DNA of 33,489 nt from Chloroflexota bacterium. Lineage in GTDB: Bacteria; Chloroflexota; Dehalococcoidia; UBA2247; RBG-13-53-26. Both the position numbers and the translations under genes were made by a program. The stretch's first letter is position 1. Each line of letters opens with the position of its first letter. Shown here in pieces: positions 4,788 through 6,776 of the stretch. The stretch lies in the NCBI GenBank assembly GCA_003650185.1, contig QMOF01000001.1, positions 1 through 33,489 of the forward strand, in the 5' to 3' direction. The notes beneath the pieces are model-generated. The model made no database searches and had not been told where the DNA came from. It saw only the letters and a program-made list of their open reading frames with translations.

Positions 4788-5840
4788 TCACTTTCCTTCT
4801 CTGGTAGAAGTCCCTTTGCCAACCCCAAGCTCCGCTTCAATGCGCTTCAGCTTCGCAGCATACCTCTCCACGTCAGCCCTCAGCTTCATCACTTCTGCCG
4901 CCTTCTGCTTGGCAGCGTCCACGACCTCCTTCGGCGAGCTGGCAGACTCCAGTATCATTCCCACGGCCCCGGAATCTGCTGACGGTACAATTGACTTGTC
5001 CAGGGCATAAAGCGTGGCGTTTCTCAGCCTGATCTTTCTCAAGAGCGATCCCATGGCCGCCATGATCCTTATTCCATTCTTCACCGCGCCGGTGATGTCC
5101 ACCTTGCGCAGCAGACGCGGAATGAGGCCGATCACAGGCATGGTCAGCGGGAGTTCATATTTCTTGCAGAAGTCCGACACCGCGATCGGGTCAACCCCGG
5201 GGCCAGCGGCCTTGGCCAGACATGCCAGAGCCAACAGGTGGTGACGGTGCTCCAGGACCTTCCGGTGCAGTTCGCTCCACAGCCCTTCCATCATGGGCTT
5301 CAGTACCACCAGGTAGTAGAGTTTCTCCCCACCACCCTTCGAAACTTCGGTCTTGGCGCTGCCCCTGCCTTCCTCCGGCGCCAACAGGACCGCAGGGCTT
5401 GGCCGCAGGGCTGTCTCGGCCGAAGGCGAAAAGACGGCGAAGCTCCCCCCAACCTCGTATGCGGCGCTCTCTGAGTCGGCGTGCTCGTTGACCGTCTTTC
5501 CAGGAGCCTCGTCAGCTACCGCCACAGTCCGACCCCCCTCGTCCAGAGACTGTACGCGCCCCAGCAACCGTTGGACGTATGCGTTGCCGACCCGCTGCTG
5601 CAACTGGCTCACCATTTGGATCTTGCGGGTCTCGTTGGCAGGCTGGCGAAACCGAGCATCGGTCAACAAGGAGGCATACCTCTCGAACGAAAGCTCCGCT
5701 GCCGAGCCCTCACCGAGGGCATCAAGGAATAGCCGGTCAGCCAGTGCACTGGAGGCTCCCCCGCTTGGCCTGCGCGCTCCCCGTATTGCTCTACCTTTTT
5801 CGGCGGCGTCAGACCGCCCTTTCACCTTCGGCTGCCTCAT
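4788..5840 (-). CDS. hypothetical protein, candidate eCIS cargo; N-terminal leader shared with the neighbouring DUF4157 protein
   Basis: The track ORF starts at GTG 5858. The ATG at 5840 has GGGAGG 5 nt upstream and is preferred (350 aa). Residues ~58-99 (track numbering) align with residues 45-86 of ORF 5904-6776, ending in the identical GNAYVQRLL. I do not recognise the C-terminal ~200 aa. Confidence 0.6.
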   Translation of the reverse strand: MRQPKVKGRSDAAEKGRAIRGARRPSGGASSALADRLFLDALGEGSAAELSFERYASLLTDARFRQPANETRKIQMVSQLQQRVGNAYVQRLLGRVQSLDEGGRTVAVADEAPGKTVNEHADSESAAYEVGGSFAVFSPSAETALRPSPAVLLAPEEGRGSAKTEVSKGGGEKLYYLVVLKPMMEGLWSELHRKVLEHRHHLLALACLAKAAGPGVDPIAVSDFCKKYELPLTMPVIGLIPRLLRKVDITGAVKNGIRIMAAMGSLLRKIRLRNATLYALDKSIVPSADSGAVGMILESASSPKEVVDAAKQKAAEVMKLRADVERYAAKLKRIEAELGVGKGTSTREGK

Positions 5841-5903
5841 CGCCGCCTCCCTGTCCACTGTCTGTCAACATTGACGCACCCCCGGACACTCATTCCACCC
5901 AGC

Positions 5904-6776
5904 CTATCGCCTTGCGCGTCTTCTGCCGCGCCCTGATTTCCCACCGGAATTGCCCGACCCTTCGGCTTGTATCGTCTCGACGCGCCGCGCCACCCCACCC
6001 GCGGGGGTGGACGCCGACTGCTGCACCACGTGGGTCAGCTCATGCGCGATGAGCTTCTTGCCATCATCCGAGCCAGGCCGATATTCGCCCTCACGGAAAA
6101 AGATATCGCGCCCCGTGGTGAATGCTCTGGCGCTCAGTTGCCTTGCCAGGGCATTGGCCTCAGCATCAGCGTGGACCCGCACGCCGTTGAAATCGTGCCC
6201 ATAGACAGGCTCAAAGGAGGCACGCACGGACTCGGGCAACTGCTGCCCGCTGCCCCGGGCTGCTTCAATCCGGTTCTCGATGTCGCTGGACACCGCCATG
6301 TCCCGGCCGATGTCGGACTTCGCCTGTACCTCCTCCTCTTCTTCCTCCTGGCGCTGGACGGCCTTTGCCTGCACCAGCTCTTCCTCTTCTTCCGGCGCCT
6401 GGCGCTGCACCTGAGGGCTCGTCATCCGCGTGACCGCCTCGGCCACCCTGTCTGCCTCTTTCTCATAGGCGCTGTCCGGCGAACTGACGGTGAGCTTTGC
6501 CTGTGGAGACATGGAATCCAGCAGCCGCTGGACGTATGCATTTCCATAGCTCCGCTGCAGCCCGCTCAGCAATCTCGCCTTTTGTGCGGCATTGGCGGGG
6601 TGTGAGAGCCGGCCATCACCGAGCATGGCTGCATGTGCTTCCAGCGAGCGCGCTCCTGTCACATCTGCCTCGGGCGTGTCAACGGGGGCCTTCAGCTTCT
6701 CAGCCGCTGGGGTCAGTCTCTTCTTCACCCGCGATTTCTCTTCCGACTGGGCCTTCCTGACGTCATGCTCTGTCAT
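5904..6776 (-). CDS. DUF4157 domain protein (zincin-like HExxH), eCIS-associated
   Basis: 290 aa. The DUF4157 core is LPESVRASFEPVYGHDFNGVRVHADAEANALARQLSARAFTTGRDIFF....LIAHELTHVVQQ (HELTH encoded at 6030-6044). The N-terminal leader carries LQRSYGNAYVQRLL. A tandem acidic linker and an Arg-rich tail are present. GGAGGTG SD. Confidence 0.85.
   Translation of the reverse strand: MTEHDVRKAQSEEKSRVKKRLTPAAEKLKAPVDTPEADVTGARSLEAHAAMLGDGRLSHPANAAQKARLLSGLQRSYGNAYVQRLLDSMSPQAKLTVSSPDSAYEKEADRVAEAVTRMTSPQVQRQAPEEEEELVQAKAVQRQEEEEEEVQAKSDIGRDMAVSSDIENRIEAARGSGQQLPESVRASFEPVYGHDFNGVRVHADAEANALARQLSARAFTTGRDIFFREGEYRPGSDDGKKLIAHELTHVVQQSASTPAGGVARRVETIQAEGSGNSGGKSGRGRRRARR

What the first reader, a model, noticed from the sequence alone, without database searches (positions are those of the whole stretch)
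4788..6776. Two adjacent proteins share a ~40-aa N-terminal leader ending in GNAYVQRLL, a candidate eCIS loading signal separable from DUF4157
Residues 45-86 of the DUF4157 protein are LEAHAAMLGDGRLSHPANAAQKARLLSGLQRSYGNAYVQRLL (DNA 6519-6644). Residues 58-99 of the neighbouring 356-aa ORF are FERYASLLTDARFRQPANETRKIQMVSQLQQRVGNAYVQRLL (DNA 5562-5687). They align without gaps at about 50% identity by my count, and the last nine residues are identical. The similarity is visible even at the DNA level (CAGCARCCGYTGGACGTATGC).

The remainders of the two proteins are unrelated. One has a DUF4157 HExxH domain. The other has an unrecognised ~200-aa C-terminal domain with a coiled-coil-like tail.

DUF4157 is known to mark eCIS-associated toxins. 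Here the leader occurs on a protein without DUF4157. This suggests that the short motif, not the metallopeptidase-like domain, is the shared recognition or packaging element, and that the 350-aa protein is a novel payload.
Basis: partly seen in the sequence, partly recalled or inferred. Interest (0 to 1): 0.7.

Follow-up and report, generated by a model that had tools for sequence, protein, structure and literature searches.

The report
Shared cargo leader in eCIS operon
Two neighbouring genes inside a phage-tail-like injection system (eCIS) operon of a Chloroflexi bacterium begin with the same conserved ~45-residue leader, which also heads hundreds of otherwise unrelated proteins in eCIS loci of at least three phyla, about half without the DUF4157 domain. 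It is therefore most likely a modular address tag for injected cargo, though this has not been tested experimentally.

Summary
The two proteins align without gaps over 43 residues (22 identical, E=2e-10) and are otherwise unrelated.

The window carries the 5' half of a complete eCIS operon. The two leader genes lie between the Pvc15-like AAA+ ATPase and the Pvc16 cap gene.

- **Outside Pfam DUF4157.** The leader lies about 95 residues upstream of the PF13699 match, and no Pfam or NCBIfam model covers it.
- **Widespread at one position.** It sits at residue ~45-95 in about 240 proteins seen here, with roughly 97 unrelated C-terminal families.
- **Linked to eCIS.** In 30 genome loci found by the motif alone, 24 have eCIS core genes within 10 kb. 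Of 58 leader genes, 29 have DUF4157 and 25 full-length ones lack it. Eighteen arrays start directly after the ATPase gene.
- **Three phyla.** A Nostoc plasmid eCIS has the same kind of pair.
- **The second protein.** Its C-terminal domain is a rare, confidently modelled all-alpha family with no structural match. It occurs fused to the leader with or without DUF4157.

The principle was already shown experimentally for AlgoCIS in 2026. Loading is not demonstrated here.

What is new is a sequence-defined, cross-phylum leader family and a new candidate payload domain.

The parts
5562..5687 (-). Conserved leader of the DUF4157-less protein (residues 58-99 in 356-aa numbering; 52-93 from the ATG start)
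   Evidence: BLASTP 22/43 identity, E=2e-10. Matches a leader HMM built from homologues.
6519..6644 (-). Conserved leader of the DUF4157 protein (residues 45-86)
   Evidence: The same segment is present in 113 of 121 top homologues by regex.
4788..5840 (-). Gene for the leader-only candidate cargo (350 aa from the ATG at 5840; an alternative GTG at 5858 gives 356 aa)
   Evidence: ORF. GGAGG ribosome-binding site before the ATG. Called as 350 aa on public contigs. No Pfam or NCBIfam hit.
4791..5324 (-). All-alpha C-terminal domain (residues ~179-356), a rare new family
   Evidence: About 20 homologues in an exhaustive search. Alignment A2. AF2 pLDDT 83.8, pTM 0.72. No Foldseek match in PDB or BFVD. 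No transmembrane segment.
5904..6776 (-). Gene for the small DUF4157-only protein (290 aa): leader, acidic linker and zincin-like domain, with no C-terminal effector domain
6012..6242 (-). DUF4157/eCIS_core domain (residues 179-255, HELTH at residue 245)
   Evidence: PF13699 E=1.2e-32. HExxH position.
6243..6518 (-). Linker holding the QAKLTV..YEKEADRVA motif and four VQRQ/VQAK motifs between acidic runs
6792..8990 (-). Pvc15-like AAA+ ATPase (WHD + AAA), ending 15 nt before the first leader gene
   Evidence: Pfam PF22977 8e-47 and PF00004 1.8e-34. Called as 732 aa.
8977..9216 (-). Conserved 79-aa ORF overlapping the ATPase start
   Evidence: Called on public contigs. Homologues found ahead of the ATPase in other loci.
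9460..10509 (-). SARP/BTAD-type regulator upstream of the operon
   Evidence: PF03704 1.3e-24.
3928..4743 (-). Pvc16-like tail terminator (cap) gene
   Evidence: PF14065 2.2e-37.
2170..3723 (-). Sheath gene
   Evidence: PF04984 and PF17482.
516..2147 (-). Two gp19-type tube genes (1704-2147 and 516-959) flanking a conserved 122-aa gene (1314-1682). The operon continues off the left end of the window.
   Evidence: PF06841 on public contigs. The rest of the operon is seen in L008.

Best explanation
The ~45-residue segment has the consensus sHAALLaDaRlSHPANaaQRAelVsqLQRsYGNAYVQRLL. It sits behind a hydrophilic stretch of about 50 residues. I read it as a modular N-terminal address tag that marks proteins as cargo of this eCIS lineage.

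The most likely mechanism is recognition during particle assembly by the Pvc15-like AAA+ ATPase, whose gene directly precedes the leader genes. The tagged proteins would then be loaded into the tube lumen. DUF4157 is an optional module that can lie between the tag and a variable C-terminal effector domain.

In this window:
- The 290-aa protein is a tagged DUF4157-only unit, resembling Sle2.
- The 350-aa protein is a tagged, DUF4157-less payload with a novel soluble all-alpha domain of unknown activity.

What is shown: homology, position, modularity and eCIS linkage. What is inferred: recognition by the ATPase, loading and injection.
For: Locus: this is a complete eCIS operon, and the two leader genes are its only payload candidates. 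The operon ends after the P2_I-like baseplate gene, with no effector genes at its 3' end.

Position and spread: the leader sits at a fixed N-terminal position, with starts mostly at residues 41-70. It was found in 243 proteins across the protein hits and the genome loci.

Variable C-termini: these fall into 97 BLAST clusters, 69 of them singletons. Seven clusters contain members both with and without DUF4157. Examples are the Peptidase_C70 domain and this protein's own C-terminal domain.

Independence from DUF4157: the Pfam hit lies about 95 residues downstream. Twenty long leader proteins have no PF13699 hit. P0128 looks like a natural DUF4157 deletion of a P0126-like protein.

eCIS linkage: of 30 genome loci found only by [HYV]GNAYVQR[LMV] plus tblastn, 22 have at least 2 eCIS core genes and 24 have at least 1 within 10 kb. 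Leader genes form arrays of 1-6. In 18 loci the first leader gene starts within about 250 nt of the AAA+ stop codon, and usually within 20 nt.

Taxonomic breadth: the family spans Chloroflexota, Acidobacteriota (Pyrinomonadaceae) and Cyanobacteriota. A Nostoc plasmid eCIS has a 157-aa DUF4157-less protein next to a 2074-aa DUF4157 protein, and both carry the leader.

Selection: there are five synonymous differences within the nine identical codons.

Experimental precedent:
- In AlgoCIS the N-terminal region upstream of DUF4157 is required for loading, DUF4157 is dispensable, and the ATPase mediates loading.
- Cgo1 and Cgo2 share an N-terminal region and fill the tube lumen.
- PVC and Afp use N-terminal signals.
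Against: - There is no experiment on this system or lineage.
- Known eCIS signals are described as disordered and without a conserved sequence. This segment is strongly conserved and is predicted helical, though only at low confidence. It may therefore do something other than what the PVC or AlgoCIS signals do.
- The actual loading signal could be the hydrophilic first ~50 residues, with the conserved segment serving another role.
- Six of the 30 loci show no eCIS gene in the available flank. Two of these contigs are under 6 kb.
- The payload domain has no detectable toxin fold and no adjacent immunity gene, so 'payload' rests on architecture alone.
Confidence: 0.62

Rival explanations
1. The leader is a docking or oligomerisation handle rather than an ATPase-read loading signal. 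Under this reading the small DUF4157-only protein acts like Streptomyces Sle2. [quoted passage not shown] The shared helical leader would be the surface through which the two proteins pair, or through which both bind the same structural partner.
For: S. lividans Sle2 is a small, non-toxic DUF4157 protein. [quoted passage not shown] Both genes sit just upstream of the sheath gene. The window has the same layout: a DUF4157-only gene, then an alpha-helical gene, then the cap and sheath genes. Many arrays begin with a DUF4157-bearing leader gene followed by DUF4157-less ones. In L048 a leader-plus-C-domain gene again sits next to a leader-plus-DUF4157 gene.
Against: Ten loci have only DUF4157-less leader genes in the available sequence. 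In AlgoCIS the two cargos do not detectably interact and load independently. The 350-aa protein lacks the long tape-measure-like coiled coil that Sle2 binds in Sle1. No interaction prediction could be run here.
Confidence: 0.2
2. The leader and the repeated hQ(R/A)(K/Q) motifs are recognition or cleavage sites of a pro-region. The DUF4157 zincin-like peptidase would process them, in cis or in trans, to release the effector domain after delivery.
For: DUF4157 (PVC-metallopeptidase) was proposed to be an autoproteolytic releasing peptidase of polymorphic toxins. The linker after the leader carries a median of 4 [ILVM]Q[RAT][KQ] motifs, against 0.08 in shuffles, and the leader itself ends in VQRLL. 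Most arrays contain at least one DUF4157 gene.
Against: In AlgoCIS, cargo lacking DUF4157 is still loaded, and Cgo1 toxicity is independent of the HExxH motif. Cleavage has never been shown. Some loci have only DUF4157-less leader genes. This rival is compatible with the loading model rather than exclusive of it.
Confidence: 0.1
3. The 350-aa protein is not a payload. It is a tagged assembly or structural accessory, such as a chaperone, plug or length-related factor, that uses the same N-terminal handle to reach the particle.
For: Its domain is an all-alpha bundle with a long terminal helix and no enzymatic signature or fold match. There is no adjacent immunity gene. Stand-alone copies of the domain exist without a leader.
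Against: The domain is rare, with about 20 cluster representatives among 1.84 billion. It is absent from most related eCIS loci, which carry other leader proteins at the same position. In P0125, P0126 and P0127 it occupies the variable C-terminal slot after DUF4157, the slot normally held by toxin domains.
Confidence: 0.08

Closest known systems
AlgoCIS cargo Cgo1/Cgo2 N-terminal loading sequence (Xu et al. 2022, PMC8894135; PROCIS preprint 10.64898/2026.05.27.728243)
   Same: Two cargo genes of one eCIS locus share an N-terminal region that lies upstream of DUF4157. That region is required for loading into the tube lumen, DUF4157 is dispensable, and the AAA+ ATPase mediates loading.
   Different: Both AlgoCIS cargos carry DUF4157. 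Their N-terminal region is described as disordered and not conserved between systems. Here the segment is strongly conserved across three phyla, can be captured by an HMM, and sits on many DUF4157-less proteins. I could not retrieve the Cgo sequences, so homology to them is untested.
Streptomyces lividans Sle1/Sle2 effector-adaptor pair (PMC13277306)
   Same: A small DUF4157-only protein and an adjacent DUF4157-less alpha-helix-rich effector are encoded together just upstream of the sheath gene. The DUF4157 protein binds the N-terminal region of its neighbour.
   Different: Sle1 has a 440-residue tape-measure-like coiled coil and a transmembrane hairpin. The 350-aa protein has neither. A shared leader is not reported for Sle1/Sle2. 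That system is a cytoplasmic actinobacterial CIS.
PVC (Pdp1/Pnf) and Afp18 N-terminal signal peptides
   Same: N-terminal, hydrophilic, transferable tags that direct payloads into the tube with the help of Pvc15.
   Different: They are 20-50 residues at the extreme N-terminus, no conserved sequence was detected, and they tolerate mutation. Here a conserved block sits at residues ~45-95.
T6SS N-terminal marker domains of polymorphic effectors (MIX, FIX, RIX)
   Same: A constant N-terminal marker is fused to highly variable C-terminal toxin domains. It is also present on adaptor-like proteins and is useful as a search handle (title and abstract of PMC10435454; otherwise my own knowledge).
   Different: It belongs to a different secretion machine, has no sequence relationship to this leader, and consists of larger folded domains.
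PVC-metallopeptidase polymorphic toxins (Zhang et al. 2012, PMC3482391)
   Same: A constant N-terminal part and variable C-terminal toxins in PVC/eCIS neighbourhoods, often without immunity genes.
   Different: There the constant part is the metallopeptidase itself. No leader upstream of it is described, nor any leader-only proteins.

Membership tests
Extracellular contractile injection system (eCIS) locus | Sheath, gp19-type tube, Pvc16/DUF4255 terminator and a CDC48-like AAA+ ATPase in one operon | tested here: met
   Pfam hits in the window and the same genes on public contigs.
Extracellular contractile injection system (eCIS) locus | Spike and baseplate genes (VgrG/Phage_GPD, PAAR, gp25, baseplate J-like, P2_I-like) | tested here: met
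   Seen downstream of the window on the 53-kb contig, L008.
Extracellular contractile injection system (eCIS) locus | Particles are released and act extracellularly, rather than being cytoplasmic or membrane-anchored | not testable with these tools
   No tail-fibre gene was recognised in the operon. The mode of action is unknown.
DUF4157 / eCIS_core (PVC-metallopeptidase) proteins | PF13699 match above the gathering score, with an HExxH motif | tested here: met
   290-aa protein: 112 bits against a cut-off of 22, with HELTH at residue 245.
DUF4157 / eCIS_core (PVC-metallopeptidase) proteins | The same test applied to the 350/356-aa protein | tested here: not met
   No Pfam hit at E<=0.01 and no HExxH.
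eCIS cargo with an N-terminal loading signal | The N-terminal region is necessary and sufficient for association with particles | not testable with these tools
   This needs particle purification with deletion and fusion constructs.
eCIS cargo with an N-terminal loading signal | Hydrophilic N-terminus; the gene lies inside or next to the eCIS operon and next to a DUF4157 gene (criteria of Danov et al. 2024) | tested here: met
   Mean Kyte-Doolittle values of the pre-leader regions are -0.62 and -1.01. Their SVM score itself was not computed.
Polymorphic toxin/effector architecture | A constant N-terminal module fused to many unrelated C-terminal domains, with domain shuffling | tested here: met
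   97 C-terminal clusters among 209 leader proteins. Seven clusters are shared between DUF4157+ and DUF4157- proteins.
Polymorphic toxin/effector architecture | The C-terminal domain is toxic, or a cognate immunity gene lies adjacent | tested here: inconclusive
   No ORF lies between the gene and the Pvc16 gene. No toxin fold was found. Toxicity was not testable.
Sle1/Sle2-type effector-adaptor pair | A small DUF4157 protein adjacent to a DUF4157-less alpha-helical protein, upstream of the sheath gene | tested here: met
   Gene order AAA, DUF4157(290), alpha-helical(350), Pvc16, sheath.
Sle1/Sle2-type effector-adaptor pair | The effector has a long N-terminal tape-measure-like coiled coil and a C-terminal transmembrane hairpin | tested here: not met
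   The region between the leader and the C-terminal domain is a 79-residue G/P/S-rich linker. The maximum 19-residue hydropathy is 1.38.

The most novel reading that the evidence does not exclude
The segment is a sequence-defined, cross-phylum eCIS cargo tag: a short conserved helix read by a conserved machine component. That would contradict the current view that eCIS loading signals have no conserved sequence. A leader HMM would then expose a large hidden repertoire of DUF4157-less effectors, including the new all-alpha domain found here. It would also give a defined motif on which to dissect cargo recognition.
Probability: 0.45. Interest if true: 0.7.

Novelty: new variant of a known kind. 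Interest (0 to 1): 0.55.

Why it matters
How eCIS particles choose their cargo is an open question, and it limits their use as programmable protein injectors. Published work reports that no conserved loading sequence could be detected. It relies on DUF4157 or on biochemical scores to predict effectors.

A conserved leader that an HMM can capture would help in three ways:
1. It would be a direct handle for finding DUF4157-less effectors in environmental lineages. Of the 20 long DUF4157-less leader proteins scanned against Pfam, only one had a clear domain hit.
2. It would offer a concrete motif (LQRsYGNAYVQRLL) for mutagenesis and binding studies with the Pvc15-like ATPase.
3. It would provide natural evidence that DUF4157 is an optional cassette, because the same effector domains occur with and without it.

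It also adds one new candidate effector domain with a confident but unmatched fold.

Tried and rejected
- **Word-indexed homologue search, 356-aa ORF.** It returned only a 99% identical copy. The exhaustive search was needed to find the C-domain family.
- **Word-indexed search, 47-column leader alignment.** It found no candidates, so that search was wasted.
- **The search for related loci with diverse alignments.** Narrower alignments worked.
- **Metagenome scan with the C-domain.** It recovered only the source locus.
- **Contig look-ups.** Stand-alone C-domain proteins and P0123/P0124 gave contigs under 4 kb. The context of leaderless copies therefore remains unknown.
- **Single-sequence AF2 of the whole protein.** It was unusable (pLDDT 41).
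- **Fold and sequence searches for the C-domain and DUF4157 protein.** Foldseek of the good C-domain model found nothing in PDB or BFVD. A PDB sequence search of the DUF4157 protein found nothing.
- **NCBIfam.** No relevant model exists.
- **tblastn of the window's leader against plasmids.** It found nothing. A GNQAVQRL-type leader found the Nostoc case.
- **Rejected: leader is part of the DUF4157 model**.
- **Rejected: recent duplication or gene conversion.** The identical motif carries synonymous differences, and the leader is conserved across phyla.
- **Rejected: membrane-inserting domain.** No hydrophobic segment is present.
- **Promoter and terminator scan.** Nothing above expectation between the genes.
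- **Literature searches.** Searches for the motif or for a DUF4157 leader found no prior description.
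Full report
**Observation**

The minus strand of the window carries two adjacent ORFs, 5904-6776 (290 aa) and 4788-5858 (356 aa).
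- BLASTP aligns residues 44-86 of the first with residues 57-99 of the second without gaps. There are 22 identical residues out of 43, E=2e-10, and the match ends in an identical GNAYVQRLL. Nothing else in the two proteins is similar.
- At the DNA level 75 of 126 bases match.
- The nine identical residues are encoded with five synonymous differences. The identity is therefore held by selection on the protein, not by recent gene conversion.
- The second gene probably starts at the ATG at 5840, giving 350 aa. A GGAGG lies 5 nt upstream, and gene callers use this start on six public contigs.

**Context**

Pfam assigns the surrounding minus-strand genes as follows:
- a SARP/BTAD regulator at 9460-10509;
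- a Pvc15-like AAA+ ATPase with an N-terminal winged-helix domain at 6792-9002;
- the DUF4157 protein, where PF13699 (now called eCIS_core) matches residues 179-255 only;
- the unannotated 350-aa protein;
- a Pvc16-type terminator at 3928-4743;
- a sheath gene at 2170-3723.

Two gp19-type tube genes follow, assigned PF06841 on the matching public contigs.

The DUF4157 protein is identical to a hypothetical protein of a Chloroflexi MAG. Longer public contigs with the same genes show the rest of the operon: a 915-aa protein, CIS_tube, VgrG, PAAR, gp25, a 668-aa baseplate protein and a P2_I-like protein, followed by an unrelated DUF4159 gene. This is a complete eCIS-type locus. The two leader genes, between the ATPase and the cap gene, are its only candidate payloads.

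**The leader is a conserved module**
- Among the 120 best homologues of the DUF4157 protein, which are mostly Chloroflexota or Dehalococcoidia and 400-500 aa long, 113 of 121 sequences carry the same segment at residue ~75-90 by a strict regular expression.
- An N-terminal alignment shows a fixed order. A hydrophilic stretch of about 50 residues comes first. Next is the block sHAALLaDaRlSHPANaaQRAelVsqLQRsYGNAYVQRLL. In DUF4157 proteins this is followed by QAKLTV-PPDD-YE-EADRVA and an acidic linker.
- The 350-aa protein shares only the part up to QRLL.
- Neither Pfam nor NCBIfam has a model for the block.

**Separability from DUF4157**

An exhaustive phmmer search of the 356-aa protein against 1.84 billion cluster representatives gave 84 hits at E<=0.001.
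- About 62 hits match the N-terminal leader at residues ~50-95 of the target.
- With a DUF4157 HMM built here, about half of these lack that domain.
- Twenty long ones (297-992 aa) were re-scanned with Pfam. None has PF13699.
- One has a clear Peptidase_C70 (AvrRpt2-like) domain. Two have weak CHAP or CdiA RNase A hints. The rest have no known domain.

Pooling all leader proteins seen here gives 243, of which 209 have at least 80 residues after the leader or DUF4157. Their C-terminal parts fall into 97 BLAST clusters, 69 of them singletons. Seven clusters contain members both with and without DUF4157. P0128 looks like a P0126-type protein from which exactly the DUF4157 domain is missing. DUF4157 therefore behaves as an optional cassette between a constant leader and a variable C-terminus.

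**Link to eCIS**

A scan of one genome per species for [HYV]GNAYVQR[LMV], confirmed by tblastn over the whole leader, gave 30 loci. They come from Dehalococcoidia, Anaerolineae, other Chloroflexota, and Pyrinomonadaceae (Acidobacteriota). I annotated them with HMMs and reference proteins from this operon.
- 22 loci have at least two eCIS core genes within 10 kb, and 24 have at least one.
- Of the six loci with none, two contigs are under 6 kb.
- The loci hold 58 leader genes: 29 with DUF4157, 25 full-length without it, and 4 cut by contig ends.
- The genes form arrays of one to six. They lie either directly after the ATPase gene or after the last baseplate gene. In 18 loci the first leader gene starts within about 250 nt of the ATPase stop codon, usually within 20 nt.
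- Eight loci mix both kinds. L040 has six leader genes, of which only the first has DUF4157.

A plasmid of Nostoc sp. UHCC 0926 carries an eCIS locus in which two adjacent genes share the leader variant HAAILNR-PANQQSSN-QLLLQLQQQYGN-YVNQVL. One encodes a 157-aa DUF4157-less protein and the other a 2074-aa DUF4157 protein. This extends the family to a third phylum and repeats the pairing.

**The second protein**

Its residues ~179-350 define a rare family of about 20 representatives.
- In P0125, P0126 and P0127 the domain follows leader plus DUF4157.
- In P0123, P0124 and P0128 it follows the leader alone.
- Several short proteins consist of the domain only.
- P0126 sits between tube genes of another eCIS locus.
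- P0124 sits next to a leader-plus-DUF4157 gene.

With the 20-sequence alignment, AlphaFold2 gives a confident all-alpha model of six helices with a long last helix (pLDDT 83.8, pTM 0.72). Foldseek finds nothing in PDB or BFVD: the best E-values are 0.39 and 0.12, and TM-scores are almost all below 0.4. The domain has no hydrophobic segment and is basic. It is joined to the leader by a 79-residue G/P/S-rich linker. Its activity is unknown, and no immunity-like ORF is adjacent.

**Mechanism**

The best-supported reading is that the leader marks proteins for incorporation into the particle. Recognition is most likely by the ATPase encoded immediately upstream, as shown for other eCIS:
- PVC and Afp use N-terminal signals.
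- AlgoCIS cargos Cgo1 and Cgo2 share an N-terminal region and fill the tube lumen.
- A 2026 preprint shows that this N-terminal region is required for loading, DUF4157 is dispensable, and the ATPase mediates loading.

A serious alternative comes from Streptomyces lividans. [quoted passage not shown] The window has the same gene layout, so the shared leader could be a pairing or docking surface. A third possibility is processing by the zincin-like domain. Consistent with this, the linker is strikingly enriched in hQ(R/A)(K/Q) motifs, with a median of 4 per linker against 0.08 in shuffles. These models are not mutually exclusive, and none can be settled computationally here.

**Novelty**

Several elements are already published:
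- the N-terminal region, not DUF4157, directs loading;
- DUF4157-less effectors sit next to DUF4157 genes;
- DUF4157 toxins are polymorphic.

The same literature states that no conserved loading sequence was detected and that loading sequences are not conserved between systems. Searches for the motif or for a DUF4157 leader found no prior description.

Three things appear new: a sequence-defined leader family spanning at least three phyla, its frequent occurrence without DUF4157, and the all-alpha C-terminal domain family. I rate this a new variant of a known kind, of moderate interest.

Noticed in passing
window 6243-6518 (-), and the same region in homologues P0002-P0121: The acidic linker between the leader and DUF4157 carries repeated [ILVM]Q[RAT][KQ] motifs. 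In the window these are VQRQ, VQAK, VQRQ and VQAK, set between runs of E. Across 119 family members the median is 4 per linker, against 0.08 in shuffled linkers. They may be cleavage or binding sites.
   Followed up: partly
P0138, P0142, P0144, P0151, P0184: Some proteins contain two leaders. An example is leader, DUF4157, about 100-300 residues, a second leader, then a further domain. They look like two cargo units fused in tandem. This could be real polyproteins or merged gene calls.
   Followed up: no
P0126 versus P0128 (alignment A2): P0128 matches P0126 closely on both sides of the DUF4157 domain but lacks the domain itself. It appears to be a natural DUF4157 deletion of an otherwise intact leader-effector protein.
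   Followed up: partly
window 8977-9216 (-): A 79-aa ORF overlaps the start of the AAA+ ATPase gene. It is called on all related contigs and has homologues at the same position in L013, L014, L016, L018 and L033. It has no Pfam hit and no known function.
   Followed up: partly
window 5840 versus 5858 (-): The mechanical ORF starts at the GTG at 5858 (356 aa). The ATG at 5840 has a GGAGG ribosome-binding site 5 nt upstream and is the start used by gene callers (350 aa).
   Followed up: yes
L008 10451-13198 and 19293-20444: The operon has a 915-aa gene without any Pfam hit after the second tube gene, possibly the tape measure. No tail-fibre gene is recognisable. The operon ends at a P2_I-like gene followed by a DUF4159 gene.
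   Followed up: no
P0137 and P0193: Two leaderless copies of the all-alpha domain carry long Q-rich, low-complexity C-terminal extensions of about 300 aa. Their contigs are too short to show the genomic context.
   Followed up: partly
L018 16831-17505; L037 396-1730 and 4890-6326; L010 2040-3629: DUF4157 genes without a detectable leader also occur inside eCIS operons. One example lies between the 122-aa gene and the second tube gene. In L010 a leader-DUF4157 cargo gene sits between the two tube genes rather than next to the ATPase.
   Followed up: no
L022, L023, L025, L026, L038 (Pyrinomonadaceae): The acidobacterial loci have a different gene order. It runs two sheath paralogues, tube, Pvc16 and AAA, followed by a ~330-365-aa and a ~1140-aa leader-DUF4157 gene. 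The leader genes still directly follow the ATPase.
   Followed up: partly
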